Positions 1 to 17,405 of a stretch of 24,000 nucleotides of DNA are shown here, piece by piece. A program made the translations under genes and the position numbers. The notes under the pieces were generated by a model. The model saw only the letters and a list, made by a program, of their open reading frames with translations. It did not search any database and had not been told where the DNA came from. This DNA comes from Pyrinomonadaceae bacterium. Its GTDB lineage: Bacteria; Acidobacteriota; Blastocatellia; Pyrinomonadales; Pyrinomonadaceae. Positions within the stretch are counted from its first letter, which is position 1. Each line of letters begins with the position of its first letter. Location: NCBI GenBank assembly GCA_036389315.1, contig DASVQF010000014.1, forward strand, positions 61,812 through 85,811, read 5' to 3'.

Positions 1-1028
1 AGAAGAAGCCGGGCGAACTGGCTGTAGAGTTCCGCGACAGCGCGGAGGCACAGCCCGCCGCTCGTCTTGACGAGATGGAGCACGACAGGGAGGCTGCGGC
101 GGCCAGAACCGCTTCGCTCGCAGGAAAGGTGTCGGCGAGCTTCCGGGCACAGTCAGTGAATGATGAAAGTGATGCTGGCGGGAGACTCGGCGGCGCATGG
201 GCCCAAGCTTCGCCGGAGAGCGCGCCGGAGCCCGCTTCGACTACGCAGGGCGCTGAAGTCTCAGTGTATGAGACGGAGCTGGGCGGCCTCTTCTATCTCG
301 TCAACCTCGGCATCTTTCTCGGCCTGTACGGCGATTTCACGCGCCCGGCCGAACTCGCGCCGCCGCTTTCGATCTGGGATTTTGTAGCCCTCGTCGGCAG
401 AGAGCTGCTCGGAGAGAAGATTGAAGATGATCCGGTGTGGCCGCTGCTCGCATCGCTCGCCTGTCGCGCGGAAGGAGAGCCGCCGGGCCATGATTTCCGA
501 GCGCCCGACAGTTGGCGCATCCCGACAGACTGGCTCCTGCCTTTCGCGCAAAAATCTCTCTGGCGGTGGGAGGCCCGGCGCGAGCGTCTGCGTGTCGCCC
601 ACGCCGAAGGGTTCACCGTGATCGACGTTCCGCTCGGGAGGGATACGGCGGCGGCGCAACTGCTGCGCGAGCTGGAAGATTACAGGGGGGCGGCGGAGTT
701 TGAGCTGCGAGCCGCAGAGCTTTCCGCAGAGAGCGGGGCGCGGGCTGAGCTTGAGGCTGAAGGTGGGCCCACTCGGCTCGCGCGCTGGCTCGGCTGGCTC
801 ATGCCTTATGTGCGCGCGAGGCTCGCGCGGGCGCTCGCCCTTGAGAAGACGGAAGAGTTGGCCCACGTACTGTGCGAGCATAAGGCCCGCGTCGTCTGCA
901 CGGCGACTCACCTGGACGTTTATTTGAGCCTGGCCCAACTGCCCATCGGCGTCCGCTTGTCGGGCCTCGACCGAGACCCCGGCTGGGTTCCGGCCGCCGG
1001 AAGGTTCATCGCCTTCCATTTCGCCTGA
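1..1028 (+). CDS. Hypothetical protein, 5'-truncated at window edge (only a positional guess: eCIS structural / tape-measure-position protein)
   Basis: The frame is open from nt 3 with no in-frame stop before the first in-window ATG (75), so the gene probably starts upstream of the window. Stop is TGA 1026-1028. GGAGGAGGAG (1033-1042) and the ATG at 1052 of the next gene follow immediately (operon/coupling). The N part is Ala/acidic low-complexity, followed by a hydrophobic GGLFYLVNLGIFLGLYGDF segment and the C-terminus DPGWVPAAGRFIAFHF. No family recognised by eye. Confidence 0.6.
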   Translation, partial: KKPGELAVEFRDSAEAQPAARLDEMEHDREAAAARTASLAGKVSASFRAQSVNDESDAGGRLGGAWAQASPESAPEPASTTQGAEVSVYETELGGLFYLVNLGIFLGLYGDFTRPAELAPPLSIWDFVALVGRELLGEKIEDDPVWPLLASLACRAEGEPPGHDFRAPDSWRIPTDWLLPFAQKSLWRWEARRERLRVAHAEGFTVIDVPLGRDTAAAQLLRELEDYRGAAEFELRAAELSAESGARAELEAEGGPTRLARWLGWLMPYVRARLARALALEKTEELAHVLCEHKARVVCTATHLDVYLSLAQLPIGVRLSGLDRDPGWVPAAGRFIAFHFA

Positions 1029-1051: not shown

Positions 1052-3094
1052 ATGCGGAAAGACCCATTCGAGAATCTGCCGCCGAGCGCCGCAACACACT
1101 TTCAACTCTACTTCTATGCGACGATTCATCGCCTGATAGAGCAGTGCGTGCTGCAATTCGGGTCTCGTGAAGCCCTCTTTGAGCAGTTCCCTTTCCTCGC
1201 CGGTTATTACGGCGAGCTGGCGGCCAAGGGGCTGAACCGTCTGGCTTCGTCAGAGGCGACGAAGTGGTGGGCCAACGCTTTGCGGCAGTGGGAAGAGGGC
1301 GTCGCCGAGCACCTGCCTCTGAGGGCCTTGCGGACTGCCTGCGAGCTTGACCGCCAGACCTTGATGCTGCTCGTCCTCCTGGGGCTGATCGAAGAGGACG
1401 CGCGCCTGGGGTTGCTGTTTGAGACCTTGCAGGGCATAGCAGGCCAGCAGCGCCCGACGGCCGGGCTGCTGGGCGGCTGGTGGGCCAACCCTGACGACAT
1501 GACCAGCGTCCGCACGGGTATCCGGCGATTGCAGGAGTTTGGGCTCGTACAGGTCGTAAACCCGGAAGCGCCGCGCGTCCAGTGGGCCTATCAGGTTCCT
1601 TCGCCCCTGTGGGACGCTTTGCGAGGCGAAGCGCATAAAACGCTCACTCCATGGGCCACCTATCAAGCGCCCGAGACTCTGCTGAGCATGGACGAGCTGA
1701 TCGTCCCTGAGCCTTTGCGGCGGACGCTCTCGTTAATTCCGCAACTGCTCCTGAGCGGCGAGGCCGAAGCGATCATCGTTCGTGGGCCCAGCCGTAACGG
1801 CAGGCGCACGCTGCTGGGCGCGCTGGCGCGCTCGACGGGACGCGGCGCGCTCTTGATAGAGGGCCTCGGCAAGGTTGCGGACGAGCGCCTCTCGCTGGTG
1901 GGCCCACTCTCGACCACGCTCAACGCGCTGCCCCTTCTGGCGCTCGATCTTGAGCCAGGCGCTACGGCCGAGCTTCCGCGTCTGCGCGGCTATGAAGGGC
2001 CCGTCGGGGTCGTCATGGGCAGGCAGGGCGGAGTCTGTGGGCCCAACGTGGAGCGCGCCGTCACGCTCAGGCTCGACATCCCTGACGTGGAAGCGAGACG
2101 CCTCCACTGGCAATCCTGCTTCGCGGGCGTAGAGGTCGCGGAGCCGGACAGGATTTGCGAGCGGTTTCGGATGACGGGCGGCAATATTCGGCGGGCCGCG
2201 CGGTTGGCCCAGTCCTACGCCGCGCTCGACGCCCGCACGCGCGTCCTGCCGGAAGACGTGCAGCAGGCCAGCCGCGCGCTCAATCGCCAGGCGCTCGACA
2301 CGCTGGCCGCTCATCTGGAAACCTCCGGCGATTGGTCTGAGCTGGCCGTGAGCGCAGAGACCCTCACGGAGCTGCGCCATCTGGAAAGTCGTTGCTGCTA
2401 TCGCGAGCGGTTGCAGCGGGCGGTCGGCCCCGTGCTCGGCAGGCAATTGAACGCAGGCGTGCGGGCGCTCTTCAGTGGGCCGAGCGGCACGGGCAAGACC
2501 CTGGCGGCCAAGCTGCTGGCGAGCCAGCTTCAGATGGACATTTACCGCCTTGATCTTTCGACCGTCGTCAACAAGTACATCGGCGAGACGGAAAAGAGCT
2601 TGAGCCAAATCTTCTCGCGCGCCGAAGAGCTGGACGTGATCCTGCTCCTGGACGAAGGGGATGCATTGCTGACTCAGCGGACGAACGTGCAGAGCTCTAA
2701 CGACCGTTACGCCAACCTGGAGACGAACTACCTGCTGCAACGTCTCGAATCGTTCGAGGGCATTATGATCGTCACGACCAACGCGGGCGACCGCATCGAC
2801 ACGGCCTTTCAGCGGCGCATGGACGTGGTGGTCAATTTCCGCGCGCCCGAAGCGGCCGAGCGTTGGGCCATCTGGCAACTGCACCTGGCCGAGACGAGCG
2901 TCGTGGACGCGTCTCGCCTGCGCGAGATGGCCGTGCGCTGCGCGCTCACGGGCGGACAGATTCGCAATGCAGTGCTGTACGCCTCTGTCCTCGCGCTCGG
3001 CAACGGCGGCGTTGTCGAGAATAAACATTTGGAAGCAGCCATCAGACGCGAATATCGCAAGATGGGCGCAGTCTGTCCTTTGCGCTCGTCCTAG
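1052..3094 (+). CDS. AAA+ ATPase with a degenerate first and a canonical second AAA module (Afp15/Pvc15/Cis15-like eCIS ATPase candidate)
   Basis: 680 aa. Strong RBS GGAGGAGGAG lies 9 nt upstream of the ATG. The C-terminal module has Walker A GPSGTGKT (nt 2477-2500), Walker B ILLLDE (2639-2656), sensor-1 VTTN and an Arg finger in FQRRMD. The middle module has a degenerate P-loop GPSRNGRRT with no Lys-Thr/Ser. An N-terminal region of about 230 aa is non-ATPase. The AAA+ call is secure; the eCIS subtype call rests on architecture and neighbours. Confidence 0.88.
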   Translation: MRKDPFENLPPSAATHFQLYFYATIHRLIEQCVLQFGSREALFEQFPFLAGYYGELAAKGLNRLASSEATKWWANALRQWEEGVAEHLPLRALRTACELDRQTLMLLVLLGLIEEDARLGLLFETLQGIAGQQRPTAGLLGGWWANPDDMTSVRTGIRRLQEFGLVQVVNPEAPRVQWAYQVPSPLWDALRGEAHKTLTPWATYQAPETLLSMDELIVPEPLRRTLSLIPQLLLSGEAEAIIVRGPSRNGRRTLLGALARSTGRGALLIEGLGKVADERLSLVGPLSTTLNALPLLALDLEPGATAELPRLRGYEGPVGVVMGRQGGVCGPNVERAVTLRLDIPDVEARRLHWQSCFAGVEVAEPDRICERFRMTGGNIRRAARLAQSYAALDARTRVLPEDVQQASRALNRQALDTLAAHLETSGDWSELAVSAETLTELRHLESRCCYRERLQRAVGPVLGRQLNAGVRALFSGPSGTGKTLAAKLLASQLQMDIYRLDLSTVVNKYIGETEKSLSQIFSRAEELDVILLLDEGDALLTQRTNVQSSNDRYANLETNYLLQRLESFEGIMIVTTNAGDRIDTAFQRRMDVVVNFRAPEAAERWAIWQLHLAETSVVDASRLREMAVRCALTGGQIRNAVLYASVLALGNGGVVENKHLEAAIRREYRKMGAVCPLRSS

Positions 3095-3109
3095 CCGCCA
3101 GGACTTGAG

Positions 3110-6100
3110 ATGGAAACAGCACGCGTTCCAGCCAAGCAGTCCGCCAGTCCGCCCGCCGCCGCCGCCGCAACGACACGGCGCACGAGCGTCGAGCCTACGG
3201 TCGTGCCCGGCGCGCAGGCAGCCATGCGACAGGTCAGCGGCCCTTCGGTGCGGCTCGGGACGGAGACGACGCCCCCGGCTCCCGCCCTGCCGGAAGAGAC
3301 TGCCAAGACCGTCTCGGGGACGGGCCTGGGCCAGCCGCTCCCGCAAGACATCAGGCAGACGCTTGAGAAGAATTTCGGCGCTTCCTTAGAGAAGGTGCGC
3401 GTCCACACGGACACCGCCGCCACGCGCGCGGCGCAGAGCCTCTCGGCCCGCGCCTTCACCTACGGCAATCACATCTTCCTCGGCCCCGGCGAAAAGCCCA
3501 CAGACCTCGCATTGATAGCGCACGAGGCCGCTCACATTGTCCAGCAACGCGGCGCTCCGGTGGTGCAACGCTTCATGACCGATCAGAGCGATGCTTACGA
3601 GGCTGAAGCGCAGAGGGCCTCTGCGGCCGCGCTCCGTCAAGAGCCGTTCCGGGTGCGCGAGCGAACCAGCGGCTTCCGTGTGCAGAGACTCGGCAAAAGC
3701 GATGCGCTCAACTTCTTTGCCGGCGCGGCGAACGCCATTCCGGGCTTCAGGATGTTCACCATCATCATCGGCGTCAACCCGATCAACATGGCCCACGTCG
3801 AGGCCAGCCCGGGCAACATCCTGCGCGCGATCATCGAGTTCGTCCCCGGCGGGGCCCTGATTACAGAGGCGCTCGATAAGTACGGCATCTTCGATAAGGT
3901 CGGAAACTTCGTGGCCGAGCAGATTCACTCGCTCGGCGTGACGGGCGGCGTCATCCGTCAGGCGATCATGGAGTTCCTGGACGGGCTGAAGTGGTCGGAC
4001 ATCTTCGATCTGGAAGGTGTCTGGGAGCGCGCCAAGCGTATCTTCACCGAACCCATTGAGCGCATCAAGAGCTTCGTCAAGGGGCTCGCCTCCGGCATCA
4101 TCAAGTTAATCAAGGACGCTGTCCTGATGCCGCTCGCCGCGCTGGCAGCGGAGACGCGCGGCTGGGACTTGCTGACCGCCATATTGGGTAAGAACCCGAT
4201 CACGGACGAAGATGTCCCGCAAGACGCCGAAGCCTTGATCGGCGGGTTCCTGAAGCTGATCCAGCAGGACGAGATCTTTCAAAATATGAAGAAGGCGCGG
4301 GCGCTGCCGCGCGCAGTAGCCTGGTTCCAGAGCAACATGGGGACGCTGCTGGGCTTCGTGCAACAGATCCCGTCGCTCGCCATCAACGCCTTCAATGCGC
4401 TGGAACTGGAAGACCTCGTGCTGCTGCCCCGTGCCTTCAAAAAAGTGGCCGCAGTCTTTGGCAACTTCATCGGCGACTTCATCAATTGGGCCGGCAAGGC
4501 GATGTGGGACTTGCTGGAACTCATCTTCGATGTGGTCAGCCCCGGCGCGCTCAGCTACATCAAGAAGACGGGCGCGGCCCTCAAGAGCATCCTCAAGAAC
4601 CCGCTGCCCTTCGTCGGCAACCTGGTGCAGGCCGCCAAGCTCGGCTTCCAGAATTTCGCCGCAAACATCGGCCAGCATTTCAAGGCCGGGCTCCTGGACT
4701 GGCTCGTCGGCGCGTTGCCCGGTGTCTACATCCCGAAAGCAATCACGCTCCCCGAGATCGTCAAGCTGGTCTTCTCCGTGCTCGGGCTCTCTTGGGCCAA
4801 CATTCGGGCCAAGCTCGTCAAAGTGATCGGCGAGCCTGCCATGAAAGTCCTTGAGACAACCTTCGACATCGTCGTCACGCTGGTCACGCAAGGCCCTGCG
4901 GCGGCCTGGGAAAAGATCAAGGATCAACTCGCCTCGCTCAAGGATCAGATCATCGGCGGCATCACCGATCTGGTGATCGACGCTGTGAAGAAGAAGGCCG
5001 TGCCCAAGATCGTCGCCATGTTCATCCCCGGCGCTGGCTTCATCTCGGCGATACTCTCGATCTACGACACGGTCATGGTCTTCGTCCAAAAGCTGTCGAA
5101 GATCGCGCAGGTCGTCTCGGCCTTCGTCAACTCCATCGTCGCCATCGCTGGCGGCAACATCGCCGGAGCCGCCAAACGCGTGGAAAGCGTGCTCGCCGGG
5201 CTGCTCTCTCTGGCCATCAACTTCCTCGCAGGCTTCGCCGGGCTGGGCAAGATCGCCGACAAGGTGATGGGCATCATTCAGAAGGTTCGCGCCACGGTTG
5301 ACAAGGCTATAGACTGGCTCATCAACTGGATCGTGACGATGGCGAAGAAGCTCTTCGCCAAGCTTTTCGGGAGGGATAAGCCTCTCGACCCGGCAGAAGC
5401 GCAAAATTTACTGGATAAGGGAATGCTTGCCGCGCAGTCGGCTGTGAGCCGGTTTAAAGGGAAGGCTGTCGGCGAAGCTGTCTTGCGTCCCTTGCTTGCC
5501 GTCATCAAATTCCGCTACAAGTTGACAGAGCTGAATCTGGTAGTCGAAGGTAAAGAATATAGTATTGAGGCAGCCATCAATCCGAAGAAGAAGGAGAGAG
5601 TGGTCGGCGTCAAAGTCTCCGATGGCAAGTTTGAAGCAACGATTGATTTCGCCGCCAAACCGGACTTGGATCAGAAAGAGTTCAGGTATCAGATTCGCAT
5701 GGCCCAGAGCGAGATGAAGGGGATGACCTGTGAAGAGTGGCTGAAGAGACGTGAGCAGTTCTTCAAATTGAAGAAAGAGAGGGCCGAGCGCGGCTTCGCC
5801 AACCCCGAAGGCAGAGACCCGGCGGCGGCACAGCGCGCAGAGTACTTCAAGGATCGCCTCCTCAGTTTTCTGGTCATGCAAGAGAAGAAGAAAGCTCCGG
5901 ACATTCCCGACGATAAGGCCAAGGCTCAAGCACAGGCTCGTTATGATGACCTGACAAAGGGCAAGTTCCTGACGCACTATTTAGACCAGGTTGCGGGCGG
6001 CGATCCGACACGCATCAGGGGCTGGCGCGACGAGCGTGTAGACGCTTCTATCGGCGCAGCCTGGCCGTCGCGGGCCAAAGAACTGGAAGCCAAGATCAAG

Positions 6101-6175
6101 GATAAAGTGGCCCCGGAGGAACTGAAGAACACCCAGTTGATGCTTACCCTGACGGTAAATGGCTCACCCGTGTAG
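3110..6175 (+). CDS. DUF4157 (HExxH zincin-like) domain polymorphic toxin; C-terminal Ntox15/Tde-like HxxD nuclease domain candidate
   Basis: 1021 aa. AGGA lies 6 nt upstream of the ATG, which is 15 nt after the ATPase stop. The DUF4157 signature GQPLPQDIRQTLEKNFGASLEKVRVHTDTAATRAAQSLSARAFTYGNHIFLGPGEKPTDLALIAHEAAHIVQQ spans nt 3326-3547, with HEAAH at 3521-3535. A long helical/hydrophobic middle covers roughly aa 190-760. The Lys/Glu-rich helical C-terminal domain carries THYLDQVAGGD (H956, D959; nt 5975-5986). Confidence 0.85.
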   Translation: METARVPAKQSASPPAAAAATTRRTSVEPTVVPGAQAAMRQVSGPSVRLGTETTPPAPALPEETAKTVSGTGLGQPLPQDIRQTLEKNFGASLEKVRVHTDTAATRAAQSLSARAFTYGNHIFLGPGEKPTDLALIAHEAAHIVQQRGAPVVQRFMTDQSDAYEAEAQRASAAALRQEPFRVRERTSGFRVQRLGKSDALNFFAGAANAIPGFRMFTIIIGVNPINMAHVEASPGNILRAIIEFVPGGALITEALDKYGIFDKVGNFVAEQIHSLGVTGGVIRQAIMEFLDGLKWSDIFDLEGVWERAKRIFTEPIERIKSFVKGLASGIIKLIKDAVLMPLAALAAETRGWDLLTAILGKNPITDEDVPQDAEALIGGFLKLIQQDEIFQNMKKARALPRAVAWFQSNMGTLLGFVQQIPSLAINAFNALELEDLVLLPRAFKKVAAVFGNFIGDFINWAGKAMWDLLELIFDVVSPGALSYIKKTGAALKSILKNPLPFVGNLVQAAKLGFQNFAANIGQHFKAGLLDWLVGALPGVYIPKAITLPEIVKLVFSVLGLSWANIRAKLVKVIGEPAMKVLETTFDIVVTLVTQGPAAAWEKIKDQLASLKDQIIGGITDLVIDAVKKKAVPKIVAMFIPGAGFISAILSIYDTVMVFVQKLSKIAQVVSAFVNSIVAIAGGNIAGAAKRVESVLAGLLSLAINFLAGFAGLGKIADKVMGIIQKVRATVDKAIDWLINWIVTMAKKLFAKLFGRDKPLDPAEAQNLLDKGMLAAQSAVSRFKGKAVGEAVLRPLLAVIKFRYKLTELNLVVEGKEYSIEAAINPKKKERVVGVKVSDGKFEATIDFAAKPDLDQKEFRYQIRMAQSEMKGMTCEEWLKRREQFFKLKKERAERGFANPEGRDPAAAQRAEYFKDRLLSFLVMQEKKKAPDIPDDKAKAQAQARYDDLTKGKFLTHYLDQVAGGDPTRIRGWRDERVDASIGAAWPSRAKELEAKIKDKVAPEELKNTQLMLTLTVNGSPV

Positions 6176-6234
6176 GCCGTCCGCCCGACTGCAACCGGGT
6201 CATGATGAATTTGAGGAAAAGAGGTTGAGAGAGT

Positions 6235-6786
6235 ATGGCAGCATTTGAATCATTTAAGAAGAGGTACGGAGAGCCTCAAGCGTGCGTCCCTGCGCCTGCC
6301 GCCAGTATCGAGCAGTACGGCGGAAAGTTACCCGAGGCATTGCTTCAAGAGTGGCAGGCGTCGGGCTGGTGTCGCTACGGAGACGGACTCTTCTGGATCG
6401 TCAACCCGTCGGAATATGTAGAGATTCTATCAGACTGGACGGCCGACCCTGAGGAAACTTACGTGATCTCGCGCACCGCCTTTGGCGGCCTGATCGTTTG
6501 GGACGATAATCAAGCATATTTTATCGACGTAGTGACCGGCGACACCCTGCCCATGCTTGACTCTGTTGAAGAGTTGTTCGACGACATGCTGACTGACGAC
6601 TCGTTTGCCCTCAACGAATTTCGACTGAAGGACTTTGAGGCGGCGGTCGCGCGCCTGGGAATTCTGGAGCAGGATGAGTGCTACGGCTACTTTCCCCCGT
6701 TAGCCCTCGGTGGGCCGGGGACAGTCGAGACTATCCGAAAGATTAAGTTGCGCGAGCATCTGCACTTCCTATCCCAGTTGACTTGA
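6235..6786 (+). CDS. GAD-like + DUF1851 immunity protein (Tdi1-like, cognate immunity to Ntox15/Tde DNases)
   Basis: 183 aa, the typical length for this two-domain family. Hallmark stretches are YGGKLPEALLQEWQASGWCRYGDGLFWIVNPSEY, SRTAFGGLIVWD, and the C-terminal CYGYFPPLALGGPGTVETIRKIKLREHLHFLSQL. The gene starts 59 nt after the toxin stop, on the same strand, with a purine-rich RBS (gaggaaaagagg). Confidence 0.8.
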   Translation: MAAFESFKKRYGEPQACVPAPAASIEQYGGKLPEALLQEWQASGWCRYGDGLFWIVNPSEYVEILSDWTADPEETYVISRTAFGGLIVWDDNQAYFIDVVTGDTLPMLDSVEELFDDMLTDDSFALNEFRLKDFEAAVARLGILEQDECYGYFPPLALGGPGTVETIRKIKLREHLHFLSQLT

Positions 6787-6814
6787 GCCGTGCCCATGAT
6801 GTCGAGGAGAAACT

Positions 6815-9715
6815 GTGAGCACAGAGCCTCTCATTTCCTGCATCATGCCGACAGCCAACCGGCGGCAGTACGTGCCGCAGGCGATCAGCTATTTTCTGCG
6901 GCAGGATTATCCGAACAAAGAGCTGGTGATCGTGGACGACGGGCTTGAGAGCGCCGCAGACCTTGTGCCGGACGACGCGCAGGTGCGTTATGTTCGTCTC
7001 AAGGGCAAGCGCACGCTCGGGGCCAAGCGCAACGAGTGCGTCAAGCTCTGCCGGGGCAACCTCATCATGCACTGGGATGATGACGACTGGATGGCCCCGC
7101 ATCGCATCAGCTACCAGGCGGAAGCGATGCTGCGTGAAAGGGCCGAGGTGTGCGGCCTGCGGAGGATGTTGTTCTACGAGATGGGGACGGGCAAGGTCTG
7201 GCTCTACGAATATCCGGCGCACCAGAGGGCCTGGCTGGCGGGCGGCTCGCTGCTCTACACGAAAGATTTCTGGCGGCGCGCGCCCTTCCCCAACATCCAG
7301 GTCGCTTCCGACACTCGCTTCGTCTGGAACCAGCGGCTTGATCGCGCCACTGTGCTTCCCGACCACAATTTCTATGTCGCGATGATTCATCCGGGCAACA
7401 CCAGCCGGAAATCTTGCAGGGGCTCTTACTGGAAACCGTGGAAGGGTGATATAGAGAGCCTGATGGGCCCGGACATGAGCTTCTACCGCTCGCTGTCGAA
7501 GCCGAGCGCACGTAGGAGCAGCGAGCCTGTCGAATTGAAGACGAGCGACAAGGCTTTATCCGTAGAGGGAACGGGAATGTTTGAAAGAGAGATCAGCTAC
7601 AAGACGGAGCCGGGGAAAAGGCACAGTTGCCGAGTCCTTATCAAGAACCCCGTAGAGAGAATCCAGGCCAAATGGAACTCGGGTATCTTTTACGAGACGC
7701 AGCGCCACGGCATGCTGAATGTCGTCTACAGCAAATTCCAGGGAGGCGCCTTTATAGACATCGGCGCGTGCATCGGGAATCACAGCCTCTTCTTCGCTCT
7801 CTGCTGCAATGCCCGAGAGGTGCTGGCCTTCGAGCCCGTGAAAGAGATTTTCGATCACCTGGAAGAGAACCTCAGACTCAACGGCATCCTAAACGTGCGG
7901 GCCAGGAACGTTGCCCTCAGCGATAAGACGGGCGATGCCGGTATGATCTTTTCCACCATCCCTCCCGAGCGCGGCGGGATGATGATTAACAAGGTGAATG
8001 AAGTGGGCACAGGGATCAGGCTCGACACTCTGGATCGCGTGCTGGCAGAGGAGAAGGTCGAGAGCGTGACGTGCATCAAGATAGATGTCGAAGGCTATAA
8101 CCTGCCAGTCCTGCGCGGCGCGCGCCAGACCATAGAGACGCACCACCCGGCCATCTTCTGCGAGTGCGAGACCGAAGAGGCTTTTAAGGAGGTGGACGCC
8201 TTCCTCTCCGAGTTCGGTTACAGGGTATGGGCCGTCGAAGGCAAGCCGTTTGTGATGAACCACACGCCGACCTACCTCTGGGAGCACGTTGAAGAGACGG
8301 ATGTGACGGTGGTGATTACGACCTACAACAGGCCGCAATACCTCGCGCGCCTGCTGCGCAGCCTGATGGCCGATGCCGAAGGCTACACGGTCAACTGCCT
8401 CGTCTACAATGACCGCTCCGAGCTGAGCTACGACGAAATCCCCGAAGGTAACGAGCGGTTCCGTGTCAAGCTCATCAACCTCGCGGAGCATCATGGAAAG
8501 CACGGCTACTGGCGGCTCGTCAACAAAATCTTCCGCGACCTTGAGCAAGTAAAGTCGCGCTACTTCATTCAGCTTCCCGACGACGTGGAGGCCCGGCCAG
8601 GCTTTTTCTCAGAGACCATAGCGACCTATGAAGCGATCAAGAATCCGGACAAGATATGCATGAACCTCTATCTGGATGCGAGCCGCATCGGGAAGAGCAA
8701 CTGGACACGCACCTTGCCGACCATCGAGCGGCACGCCGATAAGCGTGTCTTCAGGACGGGCTGGGTGGACATGTGCTACATCGCCGAGAGACGTTTTTTC
8801 GAGGCGCTACGTTTTACGATAGATCAGGTGCCGTCAAATCGCTGGCAGGGAAATCCCAGGCTCAGCTCCGGCGTCGGGCAACAGATCACACAGCGGCTCG
8901 GCAGATACGGCATGTACCAGGTCAGGGATTGTGCGCTCGCGTCGGCCGGCGTCCCCAGCCTCATGAACCCTGACCGGCCGAAATCGGAAGACCTCTCCAT
9001 CTGCCAGCTCGACCCCCTCATCTGCGGCGTAGCCTCCATCCCCGCGCGCGCGGAAAACTTGCGCCTCGCGGTCAACTCCGTTCTTCCCGGCGTGGACGAG
9101 CTGCACGTTTATCTTAACGGCTACGCCGAGACGCCCGCCTTCCTCGATCACCCCAAAGTGCAGGTCTACAGAAGCCAGGACTTCGGAGACCTGGGCGACG
9201 CCGGAAAGTTCTTCAAGGCCGGAGAGAAGAGAGCTTTTTTCATCACCATAGACGACGACATCATCTACCCTGCGGATTTCGTCTGGAAGCTGGTCAACGA
9301 GCTTCGACAGCACCGCCAGCGAGGCTTGCGCGTGGCCGTCGGCCTGCACGGCAAGATCATGGCCCGCAAGGTCTCTCGCTTCTACAGAGATCACCTAGAG
9401 CACATTCACAGTGCTTTACCCTTGAAGCATTCGCGCGGTGTCCACGTCCTCGGCACGGGCACGGCCGCCTTTCACACAGACGACCTGAAGATCACGATTG
9501 CAGACTTCAACGGTCACGCCAACATGGCCGACATCTATTTCAGCATCGCCTGCCAGAAGCAGAACGTCGGCTGCCTGGTGCTGCCGCACCCGGCCAACTA
9601 CCTGACCATCCAGCGCATACCAGTCCACCAAACCATCTGGGGCAAGTCCCGCGCAGACGATCAACTACAGACGGACGTTTACAATGGGTGGACGGATTGG
9701 AAGATCAGAATATAA
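6815..9715 (+). CDS. Four-domain glycan-assembly fusion: GT2 - FkbM-family methyltransferase - GT2 - GT-A-like glycosyltransferase
   Basis: 966 aa. GTG start at 6815 with GAGGAGA at 6804-6810. Domain 1 (about 6830-7400): ISCIMPTANRRQYVPQAISYFLRQDYPNKELVIVDDG and WDDDDW. Domain 2 (about 7710-8225): FIDIGACIGNHSLFFA ... ALSDKTGDAGM ... KIDVEGYNLPVLRGA. Domain 3 (from about 8327): VTVVITTYNRPQYLARLLRSL ... QLPDDVE. Domain 4 (about 9020-9712): SIPARAENLRLAVNSVLPGVDELHVYLNGY ... GDAGKFF ... ITIDDDIIYPADF. Confidence 0.85.
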   Translation: MSTEPLISCIMPTANRRQYVPQAISYFLRQDYPNKELVIVDDGLESAADLVPDDAQVRYVRLKGKRTLGAKRNECVKLCRGNLIMHWDDDDWMAPHRISYQAEAMLRERAEVCGLRRMLFYEMGTGKVWLYEYPAHQRAWLAGGSLLYTKDFWRRAPFPNIQVASDTRFVWNQRLDRATVLPDHNFYVAMIHPGNTSRKSCRGSYWKPWKGDIESLMGPDMSFYRSLSKPSARRSSEPVELKTSDKALSVEGTGMFEREISYKTEPGKRHSCRVLIKNPVERIQAKWNSGIFYETQRHGMLNVVYSKFQGGAFIDIGACIGNHSLFFALCCNAREVLAFEPVKEIFDHLEENLRLNGILNVRARNVALSDKTGDAGMIFSTIPPERGGMMINKVNEVGTGIRLDTLDRVLAEEKVESVTCIKIDVEGYNLPVLRGARQTIETHHPAIFCECETEEAFKEVDAFLSEFGYRVWAVEGKPFVMNHTPTYLWEHVEETDVTVVITTYNRPQYLARLLRSLMADAEGYTVNCLVYNDRSELSYDEIPEGNERFRVKLINLAEHHGKHGYWRLVNKIFRDLEQVKSRYFIQLPDDVEARPGFFSETIATYEAIKNPDKICMNLYLDASRIGKSNWTRTLPTIERHADKRVFRTGWVDMCYIAERRFFEALRFTIDQVPSNRWQGNPRLSSGVGQQITQRLGRYGMYQVRDCALASAGVPSLMNPDRPKSEDLSICQLDPLICGVASIPARAENLRLAVNSVLPGVDELHVYLNGYAETPAFLDHPKVQVYRSQDFGDLGDAGKFFKAGEKRAFFITIDDDIIYPADFVWKLVNELRQHRQRGLRVAVGLHGKIMARKVSRFYRDHLEHIHSALPLKHSRGVHVLGTGTAAFHTDDLKITIADFNGHANMADIYFSIACQKQNVGCLVLPHPANYLTIQRIPVHQTIWGKSRADDQLQTDVYNGWTDWKIRI

Positions 9716-9742
9716 GGCGGAGGACTGAAGCTTGATAGTAAG

Positions 9743-9777
9743 ATAGCCGGGAGAGGCTTATTGCCACTTCCGGCTAT
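9743..9777. terminator. Imperfect GC hairpin between the convergent glycosyltransferase gene and tRNA-Gln (possible bidirectional terminator)
   Basis: ATAGCCGG (9743-9750) pairs with CCGGCTAT (9770-9777). The stem extends inward with two mismatches around a TTATT loop. There is no clear U-tract on either strand, so the call is weak. Confidence 0.3.
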
Positions 9778-9785
9778 TGAGAAGG

Positions 9786-9856
9786 CTCGGGGACAGGGAT
9801 TCGAACCCCAATTCTCTGATCCAGAGTCAGATGTCCTACCATTAGACGATCCCCGA
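9786..9856 (-). tRNA. tRNA-Gln (anticodon CUG)
   Basis: The minus-strand read folds as a cloverleaf: TCGGGGA TC GTCT AATGGTA GGAC A TCTGA CTCTGGA TCAGA GAAT TGGGG TTCGAAT CCCTG TCCCCGA G. The acceptor stem is 7 bp. U33 is present and the anticodon CTG is the complement of nt 9822-9824. The T-loop is TTCGAAT. U1-A72 and discriminator G fit Gln identity. CCA is not encoded. Confidence 0.9.
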
Positions 9857-9870
9857 ACGTGTATGGAAAG

Positions 9871-9900
9871 AAATTACCGTGCGGGCTGAGCGGTTGTCAA
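9871..9900 (-). promoter_or_regulatory. Sigma70-like promoter for tRNA-Gln
   Basis: On the minus strand, TTGACA (complement of 9895-9900) is followed by an 18-nt spacer and TAATTT (complement of 9871-9876). The -10 element ends 14 nt before the mature tRNA 5' end. Confidence 0.5.
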
Positions 9901-10112
9901 CCGGCTCGGCGCAGTGAAACTCCTTGCTCTCTTCCGAGAAATTACAGGCCGACGGGTCGGCGTAATTTTAGGCTTGCTCATCCGGCGCATTCGACGCACA
10001 ATGTCGGGCAAGGGTCGTCACGCGCAAGTGGCCGGGAGCGGTCTCGCCACCTCACCGGCACGCTCTTCAAAAGCCAGTCGCGCTTACTTTCGATAAAAAG
10101 GATTGTGAGTAG

Positions 10113-10454
10113 ATGGGTATGGACAAAGTGCGCGCAGAGAGCAGTGACCCGGCGCAAGGGTTGCGCGCTCTCGTCAGAGAGCTGGAATCCAAGCTGAGCG
10201 AAACGGCCGACCTGGTCGCGCACGTGCGACACGAGATCAATAATCCCCTGACAGGCGTCATCGGCCAGGCGCAGTTGCTCTTGCGCGAGGAGTTGAGTCC
10301 GGCCGCCCGCCGTAGAGTCGAGACCATCGAACAACTGGCCGGACGCATTCGCGACACCGTGGCCCAACTGCGCGACGTGCAGCGCCCGCAAGCCAAAGAG
10401 CTACCCGTTCAGACGAGCGAGGAAAAAGAGACAGACTCTCCGCCGCGCCACTAA
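10113..10454 (+). CDS. Stand-alone histidine-kinase DHp (HisKA) domain protein with no catalytic ATP-binding domain
   Basis: 113 aa. AAGGA lies 10 nt upstream of the ATG. A coiled-coil lead-in is followed by the H-box AHVRHEINNPLTGVIGQAQLLL and a second DHp helix, SPAARRRVETIEQLAGRIRDTVAQLRDV. The protein ends in a low-complexity tail. The next gene is convergent, so no HATPase_c domain can follow. Confidence 0.7.
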   Translation: MGMDKVRAESSDPAQGLRALVRELESKLSETADLVAHVRHEINNPLTGVIGQAQLLLREELSPAARRRVETIEQLAGRIRDTVAQLRDVQRPQAKELPVQTSEEKETDSPPRH

Positions 10455-10490: not shown

Positions 10491-11489
10491 TCAGAAGGCA
10501 TCTTCGGGCTTTGCGCTGCTCGAAGCGGAGCGCGCAGTGATCTGCACGGGGCGCGTGGGCGCGGGCGCTTCCCTTCTGGCGGGAGCAAACCGCGCCTTCA
10601 GTATCTCTTTCAGCATCAGCCGCCGGTTACTCAAAGTGGCCATGTGAAATGGAACGACGCAGCCGCAACGGTCGCAGTCGGCGTTGTCGCCCATCATGCA
10701 CTTGCCCTTATGCTCGCCCGTGGGCCCAAGCGTGAAGGCTTTCAAGCGAAACTCGCAATTGTCCGTCACGCGCCGCGCATTCGTTGACCTCATCAGCTCA
10801 AGCGTCGAGTCCATCATGTTGATCGTGCCCGGGTATTTTCGCTTGAGCGCGAGAATCTGATCTATCAGCGCATCGCGCGTGGGCCAGTCGAGCCAGAGCG
10901 CCTCGTCCAGGTTCGTGACAGGCGTGAAGAAGTCGAAGATGATGCCGCCGCGCGCAATCGGGCCCCACTCCTCGACCAGCTCTTCGATGCAATCCTTGGT
11001 GATCGTCGTCAGCACGCAGGAGATTTGTATCTTCAGCTCCGGGTGCCTCATCACGTTCTCCTTGATCTTCTGGTAGATGCCCGGCGCGCGCATCCGTGCG
11101 AAAGCCTCTTCCGTGCCGTCTATCGAGATGACGTAGTTGCAATCCGTCCAGGGGGGCAGCTCCATCGTGCCGTTGGTGACGATGGTGTTATGCCGGAAAT
11201 ATTTGCGGCCGACTTCGATCAGGTTGCGGCGCACAAGGGGCTCGCCTCCGACCCAGGTGCAAAGCAGCATGGGGTGGCCTGCGGCCTTCATCTCTTCGAG
11301 CTTCGCGACCCACCCTTCGACGGACAGCTCCTTCTCGCCCTTGTGGTCTTCGGCGAAGAAATAGCAGTGCTCGCAGCGCAGGTTGCAGCGGTTCGTGACA
11401 TCAATCGAGCCGACGGCGTACTTTGGCAAGCCCGTCAGAAAGAGGCGCGCGTTCTGCGCTAAGCGGCTAATTCTCCCGGAGAGATTCAT
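10491..11489 (-). CDS. Radical SAM protein (small, with C-terminal extra Cys cluster, SPASM/twitch-like)
   Basis: 332 aa. The ATG is preceded by AAGGA. The CxxxCxxC motif is in VTNRCNLRCEHCYF (C35/C39/C42; nt 11364-11387). GGEP and TNG core motifs are present. C-terminal cysteines occur in KCMMGDNADCDRCGCVVPFH. Confidence 0.85.
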   Translation of the reverse strand: MNLSGRISRLAQNARLFLTGLPKYAVGSIDVTNRCNLRCEHCYFFAEDHKGEKELSVEGWVAKLEEMKAAGHPMLLCTWVGGEPLVRRNLIEVGRKYFRHNTIVTNGTMELPPWTDCNYVISIDGTEEAFARMRAPGIYQKIKENVMRHPELKIQISCVLTTITKDCIEELVEEWGPIARGGIIFDFFTPVTNLDEALWLDWPTRDALIDQILALKRKYPGTINMMDSTLELMRSTNARRVTDNCEFRLKAFTLGPTGEHKGKCMMGDNADCDRCGCVVPFHMATLSNRRLMLKEILKARFAPARREAPAPTRPVQITARSASSSAKPEDAF

Positions 11490-11496
11490 CTCTTAT

Positions 11497-11523
11497 CCTT
11501 AAATCCCTTAAATCCCTTAAATC
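11497..11523. repeat. Three perfect tandem copies of a 9-bp unit (CCTTAAATC on +; GATTTAAGG on -) directly upstream of the 332-aa radical SAM gene
   Basis: Read directly: CCTTAAATC at 11497-11505, 11506-11514 and 11515-11523. On the minus strand the last copy supplies the AAGGA Shine-Dalgarno sequence 8 nt before the ATG at 11489. Confidence 0.9.
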
Positions 11524-11656
11524 AAAGCGACGAGCGCGGCAAGGCAGCAAGGTCAGTACAGCATAAATTAAGAGCGCCAGTCCTGAGCTACAAGTGGGCC
11601 GACGCTCTTCAACCGTTCTTCGGACTCGAATCGGACTGACACGCGGAAGAGCGGCT

Positions 11657-14858: not shown

Positions 14859-14870
14859 GAGGTTCGAGTT

Positions 14871-15932: not shown

Positions 15933-15973
15933 CTGAATCGCTCATTGAATCATAATCTTCAATAGCTCTTCCT

Positions 15974-17218: not shown

Positions 17219-17320
17219 GTTCGCGGAGTGTCGCTCTAGCTCTTCTACCTTCCCGCTTCTGCTTTAAGCCTCTTCCGTGTTAGCATCGGCTCGCCTTTGA
17301 CGACAACAGGGCGCATTCCA

Positions 17321-17383: not shown

Positions 17384-17405
17384 TCTGGAGGTCTTCGTCT
17401 AATCT

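What the first reader, a model, noticed from the sequence alone, without database searches (positions are those of the whole stretch)
5387..6786. T6SS-type Tde/Tdi-like DNase-immunity cassette grafted onto the DUF4157 carrier, with a local GC drop: an antibacterial payload on an eCIS-type locus?
Seen in the sequence: the toxin C-terminus contains THYLDQVAGGD (HxxD followed by GG; nt 5975-5986) in an all-helical context. The next gene encodes a 183-aa protein with the GAD-like/DUF1851 hallmarks (GWCRYGDGLFWIVNPSEY; YGYFPPLALGG...EHLHFLSQL). Composition changes at about nt 5400. By hand count, nt 5521-5580 has 25/60 G+C against 35/60 for nt 4501-4560 in the same gene. Established knowledge: Agrobacterium T6SS effectors Tde1/Tde2 carry the Ntox15 (toxin_43) DNase domain with a catalytic HxxD, and they are neutralised by Tdi1, a GAD-like + DUF1851 protein. 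Inference: a toxin/immunity module known from T6SS and polymorphic toxins has been recombined onto an eCIS-style carrier. An immunity gene implies self or kin protection, meaning a bacterial target, whereas characterised eCIS mostly target eukaryotic cells. I do not know of this combination having been characterised experimentally.
Basis: partly seen in the sequence, partly recalled or inferred. Interest (0 to 1): 0.75.

Follow-up and report, generated by a model that had tools for sequence, protein, structure and literature searches.

The report
DNase toxin–immunity cassette on injection-system effector
A soil acidobacterium's phage-tail-like injection system carries, as its last effector gene, a swappable DNA-degrading toxin tip with its own antidote gene; the finding is real and neatly delimited, but this type of effector has already been catalogued.

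Summary
ORF 3110-6175 (1021 aa) has an eCIS_core/DUF4157 domain (aa 76-149) and an Ntox15 DNase domain (aa 854-1014, H956xxD959). ORF 6235-6786 is a GAD-like + Tdi1_C immunity protein. The modelled C-terminus matches the solved Tde1 structure 8FZY.

GC3 falls from 0.84 to 0.66 at codon 751-761. DNA homology to two syntenic relatives (88%) stops at nt 5372-5382 and resumes at 6815-6825. So nt 5383-6814 is a replaced toxin+immunity cassette.

The gene closes a genuine contractile-injection cluster from a Pyrinomonadaceae MAG, with sheath, tube, spike, baseplate, collagen-like fibre and AAA+ ATPase.

The novelty claim does not hold:
- Zhang 2012 lists Ntox15 with the PVC-metallopeptidase.
- Geller 2021 tabulates Ntox15, DUF1851 and GAD-like as enriched in eCIS operons.
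- DUF4157 toxin/immunity pairs were shown to act in antagonism by a haloarchaeal CIS in 2024.

Ntox15 is the commonest annotated tip of this carrier family. Tdi follows it in 7 of 10 loci and in 0 of 68 loci with other tips.

The cassette includes a carrier-specific pre-toxin module, so the donor was probably another CIS effector, not a T6SS gene. An immunity gene does not prove a bacterial target. Verdict: new member of a known kind.

The parts
1..1028 (+). 3' part of a 661-aa CIS-cluster gene of unknown role, cut by the window start
   Evidence: In L001 the gene is 7992-9977, directly upstream of the AAA+ ATPase. It has no Pfam, PHROG or NCBIfam family.
1052..3094 (+). AAA+ ATPase of the CIS cluster (Afp15/Pvc15/Alg15 position), 680 aa
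   Evidence: Pfam AAA at aa 473-597, E 1.4e-25. NCBIfam gives CDC48- and PAN-like hits, not ClpV. Its stop is 15 nt before the effector start. The gene is syntenic in L003-L007.
3110..6175 (+). CIS effector gene, 1021 aa: disordered N-terminus + DUF4157 + helical carrier + pre-toxin module + Ntox15
   Evidence: It is identical to an NCBI protein named 'DUF4157 domain-containing protein [Pyrinomonadaceae bacterium]'.
3110..3334 (+). Predicted disordered N-terminal region (aa 1-75), the likely loading sequence
   Evidence: pLDDT is 27-35 for aa 1-60 with no secondary structure. The region is rich in A, T and P. By analogy, the disordered N-terminal domains of AlgoCIS Cgo1/Cgo2 are required for loading.
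3335..3556 (+). eCIS_core / DUF4157 (PVC-metallopeptidase) domain with H138-E139-x-x-H142-x-x-Q145
   Evidence: Pfam E 1.7e-24. pLDDT 85-95. H138, E139, Q145 and Q146 are invariant and H142 nearly invariant in 60 homologs.
3677..5380 (+). Conserved all-helical carrier region (aa 190-757), weakly tape-measure-like; ends in ...AKKLFAKLFG(R/K)DK
   Evidence: It is 60-87% identical across homologs from many phyla. PHROG tape-measure families hit at E 8.2e-6 and 3.7e-5. The model is all-helical with pLDDT about 60-80.
4997..5257 (+). Three conserved hydrophobic, glycine-rich helices (aa 630-716), candidate membrane-inserting segments
   Evidence: Kyte-Doolittle 19-residue means reach 1.6-2.0. The columns are invariant or nearly invariant in A3. 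The two peptide patterns used to find 181 relatives come from here: FIPGAGFI and LAI[SN]F[LV]AGF.
5383..6814 (+). Replaced cassette: pre-toxin module + Ntox15 + intergenic region + immunity gene
   Evidence: Homology of 88% to L003 stops at 5382 and resumes at 6815. Homology to L004 stops at 5372 and resumes at 6825. The GC3 change point is at codon 751-761. The protein alignment diverges after aa 757-760.
5390..5653 (+). Pre-toxin alpha/beta module (aa 761-848), no Pfam family
   Evidence: pLDDT 86-91, two helices plus four strands. It is found in 67 of 150 representative hits, and 56 of those have it directly after the carrier tail. GC3 is 0.578.
5669..6151 (+). Ntox15 (Tde-type) DNase domain, aa 854-1014
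   Evidence: Pfam E 2.9e-13 (1.4e-14 on the C-terminal part alone). PDB sequence hits: 8fzz_A 4.3e-6, 8g0k_A, 8fzy_A. Foldseek against 8fzy: probability 1.00, TM-score on the target 0.67-0.69. pLDDT 92-97.
5975..5986 (+). Catalytic H956-Y-L-D959 motif
   Evidence: Sequence CACTATTTAGAC. H and D are invariant in 87 Ntox15 representatives. The motif aligns to the HNPD motif of 8fzz_A.
6235..6786 (+). Tdi-type immunity gene, 183 aa (GAD-like aa 3-97 + T6SS_Tdi1_C/DUF1851 aa 111-183)
   Evidence: Pfam. PDB hits: 8fzz_B 8.2e-16, 8g0k_B 4.4e-12, 6itw_A (Atu4351) 8e-6. NCBIfam immunity_TaeI 1.3e-33. A purine-rich GAGGAAAAGAGG lies upstream of the ATG.
6815..9715 (+). GT2 - FkbM methyltransferase - GT2 gene, the conserved 3' flank of the cassette
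   Evidence: Pfam. It is 84-88% identical at DNA level in L003 and L004. It is syntenic after the effector in L003-L007 and in many genome loci.

Best explanation
Window 3110-6786 encodes the terminal effector-immunity pair of a contractile injection system (CIS) in a Pyrinomonadaceae (Acidobacteriota) genome. The effector is a polymorphic toxin.

**Constant part (aa 1-757).**
- a disordered loading sequence;
- a DUF4157/PVC-metallopeptidase domain;
- a long helical region that is weakly tape-measure-like and has three hydrophobic helices.

**Exchangeable tip (aa 761-1021).** A small pre-toxin module followed by an Ntox15 Mg-dependent DNase with the catalytic H956xxD959.

**Proposed mechanism.**
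1. The adjacent AAA+ ATPase loads the effector into the particle.
2. Sheath contraction expels it into a target cell. The hydrophobic helices may help it cross a membrane.
3. The DNase degrades the target's DNA.
4. The 183-aa Tdi protein binds the DNase in the producer, and in kin cells that are hit. By analogy with Bacteroidales Tde1/Tdi1 it inserts into the toxin core and disrupts the active site.

**Origin.** The tip and immunity gene (nt 5383-6814) were acquired together by homologous recombination. The flanks were the conserved carrier end and the conserved downstream glycosyltransferase gene. The donor was probably another effector gene of the same CIS family in a genome with lower GC3.

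**Shown here:** the domains, motif, predicted fold, cassette boundaries, CIS context, and co-occurrence of Ntox15 with Tdi.
**Inferred:** loading, ejection, DNase activity, neutralisation, and the kind of target. A bacterial target is most likely but unproven.
For: - **Domains and motif:**
- **Fold:** AlphaFold model with pLDDT 92-97 over the Ntox15 part. Foldseek top four PDB hits are all Tde1 chains of 8fzy (probability 1.00, TM-score on the target 0.67-0.69).
- **Cassette boundaries from three independent lines:** protein alignment, DNA homology breaks at 5372/5382 and 6815/6825, and the GC3 change point at codon 751-761 with 0 of 300 permutations.
- **Polymorphism.** The closest carriers are 86-87% identical. 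One has a deaminase-like tip with no immunity ORF; the other has an unannotated tip followed by a WD40 gene. Among 81 tips: Ntox15 11, Endonuclea_NS_2 10, AID/APOBEC-like 2, GmrSD_C 2, and Ntox4, AHH and HNH_4 one each. The rest are unannotated.
- **Toxin-immunity linkage:** Tdi follows 7 of 10 Ntox15 tips and 0 of 68 other tips, Fisher p = 4.5e-8. The locus with the most similar tip (L005, 36%) also has the most similar Tdi (44.5%).
- **CIS context.** On the same contig: sheath, gp19 tube, CIS_tube/LysM, GPD and base_V spike, gp25, Baseplate_J, Tail_P2_I, collagen-like tail fibre, AAA+ ATPase. All are on one strand with short gaps.
- **Mechanistic precedents.** Loading needs the disordered N-terminal domain and is attributed to the AAA+ protein Alg15. 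Tde1/Tdi1 biochemistry and structures. DUF4157 toxin/immunity pairs are associated with an antagonistic haloarchaeal CIS.
Against: - No activity, loading or target data exist for this protein or for any Ntox15-bearing CIS effector.
- Three of 10 Ntox15 carriers lack a Tdi gene. Immunity is therefore not obligatory, or is encoded elsewhere in those genomes.
- The similarity to tape-measure proteins is weak: PHROG E about 1e-5, and no significant BFVD fold match.
- The hydrophobic stretch is modelled with low confidence (pLDDT 32-44).
- Nothing here shows whether the particle is released (eCIS) or stays anchored or cytoplasmic.
- The tail fibre has no phage relative that would hint at a bacterial receptor.
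Confidence: 0.8

Rival explanations
1. Same toxin and immunity, but the natural target is a eukaryote (fungus, amoeba or other protist). Tdi would serve only to protect the producer's own DNA while the DNase is made and loaded.
For: - TafE is an Ntox15 DNase with the Tdi-type immunity protein TaeI. [quoted passage not shown]
- The window's immunity protein matches the TaeI model at E 1.3e-33.
- Characterised eCIS mostly act on eukaryotes.
- The tail fibre has no match in 50,697 phage records.
- Three of 10 Ntox15 carriers lack Tdi. That is hard to reconcile with routine fire between kin cells.
Against: - Across this carrier family the tips are nucleases and deaminases typical of interbacterial polymorphic toxins.
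- The toxin and immunity genes diversify together. This is the signature of kin discrimination between bacteria.
- The hosts are free-living soil bacteria from more than 10 phyla.
- No nuclear-localisation analysis was done.
Confidence: 0.2
2. The system acts on the producer's own population rather than on competitors, as described for Streptomyces CIS. The DUF4157, tape-measure-like nuclease effector would cause regulated cell death or release of extracellular DNA, and Tdi would set the timing.
For: - Tme of S. davawensis has the same layout: N-terminal DUF4157, a tape-measure-like region with predicted transmembrane helices, and a C-terminal endonuclease. It drives extracellular DNA release and sporulation.
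- Ten of 81 tips in this family are Endonuclea_NS_2, a DNA/RNA non-specific endonuclease family. Whether that is the family of Tme's EndA-like domain was not tested.
- The carrier gives weak tape-measure hits and has hydrophobic helices.
Against: - The gene position differs. Tme lies upstream of the baseplate genes and is the largest ORF of its cluster. This gene follows the AAA+ ATPase at the 3' end.
- This cluster has a collagen-like tail fibre. A fibre suggests binding to an external target, but no comparison with the Streptomyces clusters was made.
- Hypervariable tips with cognate immunity fit antagonism better than a developmental role.
Confidence: 0.1
3. The machine is not a released eCIS. 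It is a membrane-anchored, contact-dependent CIS that functions like a T6SS, as in Halogeometricum, with the effector on the spike rather than in the tube lumen.
For: - A haloarchaeal CIS of the same broad lineage is bound to the cytoplasmic membrane and has DUF4157 toxin/immunity pairs. Its effectors were proposed to sit on the spike.
- A DUF4157 effector co-purifies with spike and tube-initiator proteins in Streptomyces.
Against: - A tail-fibre gene and an Afp15-type AAA+ ATPase are present. In AlgoCIS that ATPase is linked to loading the tube lumen.
- No membrane-anchor gene was recognised in the 33 kb examined, but several genes there have no annotation.
Confidence: 0.15

Closest known systems
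PVC/eCIS polymorphic toxins with an N-terminal PVC-metallopeptidase (DUF4157, eCIS_core); eCIS-associated toxins (Zhang 2012; Geller 2021; Danov 2024)
   Same: - N-terminal HExxHxxQ domain, a long linker and a variable C-terminal toxin.
- Position at the 3' end of the CIS operon next to the AAA+ ATPase.
- Ntox15 is explicitly listed with PVC and the PVC-metallopeptidase.
- Ntox15, DUF1851 and GAD-like are tabulated as enriched in eCIS operons.
   Different: - No Ntox15/Tdi pair from a CIS appears among the eCIS-associated toxins tested in Geller 2021 or Danov 2024, or in any other paper read here.
- This subfamily has a highly conserved 570-aa helical carrier and an extra pre-toxin module. Neither matches a Pfam family.
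T6SS Tde/Tdi pairs: Agrobacterium Tde1/Tdi1 (Atu4350/Atu4351), Bacteroidales Tde1/Tdi1 (PDB 8FZY, 8FZZ, 8G0K), Acinetobacter TafE/TaeI
   Same: - Ntox15 fold and HxxD motif.
- A GAD-like + DUF1851 immunity gene immediately downstream.
- Sequence hits to the solved chains, and a fold match to free Tde1.
   Different: - Only about 21-24% identity to Tde1.
- No Hcp, VgrG, PAAR or other T6SS trafficking domain, and no T6SS genes nearby. Delivery is by an Afp/PVC-type cluster.
Tme, the tape-measure-related endonuclease effector of the Streptomyces davawensis CIS (Nagakubo 2024)
   Same: DUF4157 at the N-terminus, a helical and hydrophobic tape-measure-like middle region, and a C-terminal nuclease. 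The family is spread across phyla with exchangeable C-termini.
   Different: - Tme is 2247 aa, about 70% disordered, and encoded upstream of the baseplate genes. No immunity gene is mentioned in the passages read.
- Here the protein is 1021 aa, follows the ATPase, has a different nuclease family, and has a cognate immunity gene.
Haloarchaeal CIS (archaeal T6SS) with DUF4157 toxins and downstream immunity genes (Sci Adv 2024)
   Same: DUF4157-bearing toxins neutralised by the product of the next gene, encoded in or secreted by a CIS that antagonises other prokaryotes.
   Different: - That system is archaeal and membrane-anchored, and the toxin domains are unannotated.
- Here the host is bacterial, a tail fibre is present, and the toxin and immunity families are defined.

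Membership tests
Ntox15 / Tde nuclease domain (PF15604) | Match to the family profile above the curated threshold | tested here: met
   50.6 bits on the whole protein and 54.8 bits on the C-terminal part, against a cut-off of 22.5. An HMM built from 87 representatives gives E 1.1e-43.
Ntox15 / Tde nuclease domain (PF15604) | Catalytic HxxD motif followed by the conserved AGG and SIGxxW | tested here: met
   The motifs are H956-Y-L-D959-Q-V-A-G-G and S-I-G-A-A-W. H, D, G, G and W are invariant in 87 representatives. The HxxD aligns to HNPD of 8fzz_A.
Ntox15 / Tde nuclease domain (PF15604) | Mainly helical Tde1 fold | tested here: met
   The model has pLDDT 92-97 over this domain. Foldseek PDB ranks 1-4 are all 8fzy (Tde1), probability 1.00, TM-score on the target 0.67-0.69, rmsd 3.5-4.3 A.
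Ntox15 / Tde nuclease domain (PF15604) | Mg-dependent DNase activity abolished by HxxD mutation | not testable with these tools
   Needs expression and an in-vitro nuclease assay.
Tdi1-type immunity (GAD-like PF08887 + T6SS_Tdi1_C/DUF1851 PF08906) | Both domains present above threshold, in order | tested here: met
   85.6 bits (cut-off 25) and 71.7 bits (cut-off 27.4). PDB hits: 8fzz_B 8.2e-16, 8g0k_B 4.4e-12, 6itw_A 8e-6.
Tdi1-type immunity (GAD-like PF08887 + T6SS_Tdi1_C/DUF1851 PF08906) | Encoded immediately downstream of its Ntox15 toxin and co-inherited with it | tested here: met
   The gap is 59 nt on the same strand. Tdi follows 7 of 10 Ntox15 tips and 0 of 68 other tips, p = 4.5e-8.
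Tdi1-type immunity (GAD-like PF08887 + T6SS_Tdi1_C/DUF1851 PF08906) | Binds and neutralises the cognate toxin | not testable with these tools
   Needs a co-expression rescue and a pull-down.
eCIS/PVC-type effector (eCIS-associated toxin with DUF4157) | N-terminal DUF4157/PVC-metallopeptidase with the HExxHxxQ signature | tested here: met
   Pfam E 1.7e-24. H138, E139, H142 and Q145 are conserved.
eCIS/PVC-type effector (eCIS-associated toxin with DUF4157) | Encoded at the 3' end of a CIS cluster with sheath, tube, spike, baseplate and AAA+ ATPase | tested here: met
   Same contig, same strand: sheath, gp19, CIS_tube/LysM, GPD, base_V, gp25, Baseplate_J, Tail_P2_I, fibre, AAA.
eCIS/PVC-type effector (eCIS-associated toxin with DUF4157) | Disordered N-terminal loading sequence | tested here: inconclusive
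   Prediction only: pLDDT 27-35 and no secondary structure for aa 1-60, with A/T/P-rich composition. This matches the Cgo1/Cgo2 pattern.
eCIS/PVC-type effector (eCIS-associated toxin with DUF4157) | Physically loaded into and ejected from the particle | not testable with these tools
   Needs particle purification and mass spectrometry.
Extracellular CIS (released particle) as opposed to anchored or cytoplasmic CIS | Tail fibre for binding a target | tested here: inconclusive
   The 708-aa gene after Tail_P2_I hits phage tail-fibre PHROGs (1.6e-31) only through its collagen repeats. It has no phage tblastn match.
Extracellular CIS (released particle) as opposed to anchored or cytoplasmic CIS | Release of particles into the medium | not testable with these tools
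   Needs microscopy or fractionation.
T6SS effector | T6SS trafficking domain (PAAR, VgrG, Hcp, MIX/FIX, Rhs) or neighbouring T6SS core genes | tested here: not met
   No such domain is present in the protein. The neighbouring genes are Afp/PVC-type, and the ATPase is CDC48/PAN-like rather than ClpV. Relatives of the toxin domain do occur on VgrG, Hcp, PAAR-like and LXG carriers.
Tme-like tape-measure-related CIS effectors | Homology to phage tape-measure proteins plus predicted transmembrane helices | tested here: inconclusive
   PHROG tape-measure families hit at E 8.2e-6 and 3.7e-5 over aa 294-748. There are three hydrophobic segments. No significant BFVD fold match was found.
Tme-like tape-measure-related CIS effectors | Largest ORF of the cluster, located just upstream of the baseplate genes | tested here: not met
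   The gene follows the AAA+ ATPase at the 3' end, and the sheath gene is larger at 1090 aa.

The most novel reading that the evidence does not exclude
This widespread soil-bacterial CIS lineage may be a dedicated interbacterial weapon. Relatives were found in genomes assigned to Acidobacteriota, Gemmatimonadota, Verrucomicrobiota, Eremiobacterota, Cyanobacteria, Actinomycetota, Pseudomonadota and others.

- Its tape-measure-derived carrier would insert its three conserved Gly-rich hydrophobic helices into the prey inner membrane. It would thereby translocate exchangeable nuclease tips into the cytoplasm.
- The unannotated 88-aa pre-toxin module would mark the release or recombination point.
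- Tdi would provide kin immunity.

That would be the first released eCIS shown to deliver a T6SS-class DNase with cognate immunity into bacteria, using a self-translocating carrier.
Probability: 0.3. Interest if true: 0.5.

Novelty: new member of a known kind. Interest (0 to 1): 0.25.

Why it matters
- **A clean example of cassette swapping.** Three independent lines place the junctions to within about 10 nt: protein alignment, DNA synteny and GC3. This is textbook toxin/immunity exchange in a CIS effector.
- **A constant-versus-variable map.** The carrier is constant over aa 1-757 and variable after that. Such a map could guide engineering of programmable injection systems.
- **A candidate antibacterial CIS family.** The effector family is abundant in uncultured soil bacteria, and its tips are mostly nucleases. 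This supports the existing view that many eCIS-type machines act between microbes. Cultivable hosts for testing include Nostoc foliaceum FACHB-393, Variovorax sp. KK3, Solimonas soli DSM 21787, Zoogloea sp. LCSB751 and Dyella sp. 2RAB6.
- **No new kind of system.** The finding does not reveal anything outside known categories.

Tried and rejected
- **Word-index homolog search with the tip alone** returned nothing. The exhaustive representative search replaced it. The tip has no relative above about 45% identity, so no donor can be named.
- **Extending the contig by exact-pattern scans** of metagenome and genome collections found nothing. A look-up of the NCBI copy of the baseplate protein also failed. 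The JGI cluster member worked.
- **Direct or inverted repeats at the cassette borders** as a recombination signature: only short, chance-level matches.
- **Promoter and terminator scan** of 2900-10200: counts were at shuffle expectation, so there is no evidence for a separate cassette promoter.
- **Tail fibre against 50,697 phage records**: no match, so no hint about the target.
- **BFVD fold search for the carrier**: no significant hit. Tape-measure proteins appear only among the weak matches.
- **First Ntox15 HMM**, built from full-length sequences, also captured carrier columns and hit every locus. It was discarded and rebuilt on the domain only.
- **Rejected readings.**
  - *A T6SS effector:* there is no trafficking domain and no T6SS genes.
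  - *A toxin-antitoxin addiction module:* the toxin is the C-terminus of a 1021-aa secreted-type effector inside a CIS operon.
  - *Orphan toxin or immunity cassettes elsewhere in the window:* none were found.

Full report
**1. What is in the sequence**

ORF 3110-6175 (+) encodes 1021 aa, and ORF 6235-6786 (+) encodes 183 aa. H956-Y-L-D959 is encoded by nt 5975-5986 (CACTATTTAGAC).

Pfam places these domains:
- eCIS_core/DUF4157 at aa 76-149 (E 1.7e-24).
- Ntox15 at aa 854-1014 (E 2.9e-13; 50.6 bits against a curated cut-off of 22.5).
- In the small protein, GAD-like at aa 3-97 (E 2.7e-24) and T6SS_Tdi1_C at aa 111-183 (E 4.6e-20).

The upstream gene, 1052-3094, is an AAA+ ATPase. The downstream gene, 6815-9715, is a GT2-FkbM-GT2 fusion.

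Against solved structures:
- The C-terminal domain hits the three deposited Ntox15 chains: 8fzz_A at 4.3e-6, plus 8g0k_A and 8fzy_A. Its HYLD aligns to their HNPD.
- The small protein hits their partner immunity chains, 8fzz_B at 8.2e-16 and 8g0k_B at 4.4e-12. It also hits Agrobacterium Atu4351 (6itw_A) at 8e-6.
- NCBIfam adds immunity_TaeI at 1.3e-33.

In 87 representative Ntox15 domains the H and D of HxxD, a G of AGG, and the G and W of SIGxxW are invariant. The window protein keeps all of them.

An AlphaFold2 model built on 60 homologs gives pLDDT 92-97 for aa 850-1021. Its only significant PDB fold matches are four chains of free Tde1 (8fzy), with probability 1.00 and TM-score on the target of 0.67-0.69.

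**2. The compositional break and the cassette boundaries**

Third-position GC is 0.839 for codons 1-760, 0.664 for codons 761-1021 and 0.663 for the immunity gene. The flanking genes are at 0.78-0.79. The background of 132 windows of 180 codons is 0.807 +/- 0.035, minimum 0.706.

A two-segment likelihood scan puts the change at codon 751-761 (nt 5363-5393). None of 300 permutations reaches that likelihood ratio.

Independent evidence comes from the two closest homologs, which are 86-87% identical over only the first 74-77% of the protein.
- Their alignment with the query is near-perfect up to ...AKKLFAKLFG(R/K)DK (aa 745-760), then unalignable.
- Their contigs are syntenic with the window. DNA identity to L003 is 88% over window 1091-5382 and again over 6815-9709. 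Identity to L004 is 87.6% over 1721-5372 and resumes at 6825.

So nt 5383-6814 is a replaced segment, bounded by the conserved carrier end and the conserved glycosyltransferase gene.

In L003 the equivalent segment encodes a tip with sub-threshold AID/APOBEC-like deaminase hits and no immunity ORF. In L004 it encodes an unannotated tip followed by a 317-aa WD40 protein. No repeats mark the borders.

**3. Genomic context**

The window is part of a 139.9-kb metagenomic contig (JGI 3300034174). NCBI holds the same protein as 'DUF4157 domain-containing protein [Pyrinomonadaceae bacterium]'.

The genes upstream on the same strand are:
- a tail sheath of 1090 aa;
- a Phage_T4_gp19 tube protein;
- a CIS_tube/LysM protein;
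- a Phage_GPD spike and a Phage_base_V protein;
- GPW_gp25;
- Baseplate_J (779 aa);
- Tail_P2_I (1002 aa);
- a 708-aa collagen-repeat tail-fibre-like protein;
- a GT4+TPR protein;
- a weak CIS13-like protein and two unknowns;
- then the AAA+ ATPase, whose stop is 15 nt before the effector start.

This is a genuine Afp/PVC-type contractile injection cluster, not a T6SS. The effector has no PAAR, VgrG or Hcp domain. The ATPase resembles CDC48/PAN rather than ClpV.

**4. Architecture of the effector**

- *aa 1-60* are predicted disordered (pLDDT about 30, rich in A, T and P).
- *aa 76-149* are the DUF4157 domain with H138-E-x-x-H142-x-x-Q145 conserved.
- *aa 190-757* are all-helical and very conserved: 60-87% identity in relatives from many phyla. 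This region includes three glycine-rich hydrophobic helices at aa 630-716. It gives weak hits to phage tape-measure families (E 8.2e-6 and 3.7e-5), but a viral fold search found nothing significant.
- *aa 761-848* form a confidently modelled two-helix, four-strand module with no Pfam family. It occurs in 67 of 150 representative hits. In 56 of those it sits directly behind the carrier tail. The other 11 are short proteins with the module at their N-terminal end.

This module lies inside the low-GC3 replaced segment (GC3 0.578). The donor of the cassette was therefore most probably another effector gene of the same family, not a T6SS locus.

**5. How general is it?**

At least 2,266 proteins share the carrier. 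Of the 120 best, 32 carry Ntox15. Others carry Ntox4, WHH + colicin-DNase, AHH, Endonuclea_NS_2 or RNase A-like tips.

A scan of species-representative genomes found 181 relatives. The organism labels are those in the record titles. They include:
- Acidobacteriota, Gemmatimonadota, Verrucomicrobiota and Eremiobacterota;
- Nitrospirota, Planctomycetota, Chloroflexota and Fibrobacterota;
- Bacteroidota, Cyanobacteria, Actinomycetota and Pseudomonadota.

Isolates among them include Nostoc foliaceum FACHB-393, Variovorax sp. KK3, Solimonas soli DSM 21787, Zoogloea sp. LCSB751 and Dyella sp. 2RAB6.

Among 81 tips the annotated ones are Ntox15 (11), Endonuclea_NS_2 (10), AID/APOBEC-like (2), GmrSD_C (2), and Ntox4, AHH and HNH_4 (one each). 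The rest are unannotated.

A Tdi gene follows 7 of 10 other Ntox15-bearing carriers and none of 68 carriers with other tips (Fisher p = 4.5e-8). Tip and Tdi both diverge fast, at 22-36% and 29-45% identity, while the carrier stays near 60%. The locus with the most similar tip also has the most similar Tdi. Three Ntox15 carriers (L006, L007, L014) have no Tdi downstream.

The toxin domain itself is shared among delivery systems. Of its 87 nearest representatives:
- 10 carry eCIS_core;
- 2 carry DUF4280;
- VgrG, Hcp, Tox-PAAR-like, LXG and WXG100 carry one each.

**6. Most likely mechanism**

By analogy with AlgoCIS cargo, the disordered N-terminus is the loading signal. The adjacent AAA+ ATPase feeds the protein into the tube. 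DUF4157 is dispensable for loading and its role is open.

After contraction the effector is expelled. The conserved hydrophobic helices are candidates for membrane insertion, as proposed for tape-measure-related effectors.

The Ntox15 tip would then act as a Mg-dependent, sequence-independent DNase through its HxxD motif. Tdi would neutralise it by inserting into the toxin core, as seen for Bacteroidales Tde1/Tdi1.

Shown here: the domains, motif, predicted fold, context, cassette boundaries and toxin-immunity linkage. Inferred: loading, ejection, activity, neutralisation and target.

**7. Target**

This is plausible. The tips are those of interbacterial polymorphic toxins, and toxin and immunity diversify together.

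It is not compelling, for two reasons. A cytoplasmically made DNase needs an antidote whatever the target is. And TafE/TaeI is an Ntox15/Tdi-type pair in which deleting the toxin gene affected only antifungal killing.

The tail fibre gave no hint. A role within the producer's own population, as for Streptomyces Tme, or a membrane-anchored mode, as in haloarchaea, cannot be excluded.

**8. Novelty**

- Zhang et al. 2012 defined the PVC-metallopeptidase as the constant N-terminus of PVC-delivered polymorphic toxins. They listed Ntox15 among its partners, and they noted that many PVC toxins lack adjacent immunity genes.
- Geller et al. 2021 named DUF4157 an eCIS core domain and described the architecture of N-terminal DUF4157, long linker and C-terminal toxin. 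They showed toxin-immunity pairs next to eCIS. Their supplementary tables score Ntox15 (odds ratio 100, 11 genes), DUF1851 (21.6) and GAD-like (11.4) as enriched in eCIS operons.
- Danov et al. 2024 used DUF4157 as a predictor of eCIS toxins.
- DUF4157 toxins with downstream immunity genes are encoded in, or secreted by, a haloarchaeal CIS that mediates contact-dependent antagonism.

In the papers read here I found no Ntox15/Tdi pair from a CIS tested experimentally. I also found no description of this carrier's 570-aa helical region or of the pre-toxin module.

The locus is therefore a well-delimited new member of a known kind.

**9. Verdict**

Interest is 0.25.

Noticed in passing
window 6815-9715; L008 15208-17199; L003-L007: A GT2-FkbM methyltransferase-GT2 gene directly follows the effector (or its immunity gene) in related CIS loci from several phyla. 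A GT4+TPR gene sits inside the cluster between the fibre and the CIS13-like gene. Glycosylation seems tied to this CIS lineage, but its substrate is unknown.
   Followed up: partly
window 5390-5653 (aa 761-848 of the effector): An 88-aa alpha/beta pre-toxin module with pLDDT 86-91 and no Pfam family. It occurs in 67 of 150 representative hits, and 56 of those have it directly behind the carrier tail. The two closest relatives lack it. Its role is unknown; it might mark a release or recombination site.
   Followed up: partly
window 3677-5380, especially 4997-5257: The carrier region is 60-87% identical across at least 10 phyla and gives weak tape-measure PHROG hits. It has three invariant Gly-rich hydrophobic helices: IVAMFIPGAGFISAILSIY, VVSAFVNSIVAIA and LLSLAINFLAGFAGLG. 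This conservation suggests recent horizontal spread of the whole CIS.
   Followed up: partly
L003 8219-13450, against window 9709-9774: The closest syntenic relative has a 5.4-kb insertion between the glycosyltransferase gene and the HisKA fragment, where the window has only 65 bp. It encodes an FGE-sulfatase-domain protein (914 aa), an AAA ATPase (324 aa) and a TIR+iSTAND protein (496 aa). It looks like a defence island.
   Followed up: no
L006 (Gaiellaceae MAG), L007, L014 (Terracidiphilus MAG): These Ntox15-bearing carriers have no Tdi gene downstream. In L006 and L007 the glycosyltransferase/methyltransferase gene follows directly. How those producers avoid self-intoxication is unexplained.
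   Followed up: partly
L011 6644-13837 (Geobacter MAG); L055 6674-13888 (Chthoniobacterales MAG): Each locus has one continuous ORF of about 2400 aa holding two complete carrier units in tandem. A second DUF4157 domain and a second hydrophobic carrier tail follow the first.
   Followed up: partly
L015 (5.1-kb contig of a Nitrososphaera MAG): A carrier homolog 56% identical to the query sits in a genome bin assigned to an archaeon. The short contig makes a binning error as likely as a real archaeal copy.
   Followed up: no
window 10113-10454: A 113-aa ORF with only a HisKA phospho-acceptor domain, and no sensor or ATPase domain. It is conserved in L001-L003, so it may be a remnant or a stand-alone fragment of a histidine kinase.
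   Followed up: no
window 10491-13627 (- strand) and 14031-19946: There are two radical SAM genes, one of them with an HMPTM-type zinc ribbon. They are followed by a lipid A/LPS block with lpxA-like, lpxD, lpxB (- strand) and lptD. This is ordinary chromosomal context showing that the host is a diderm.
   Followed up: no
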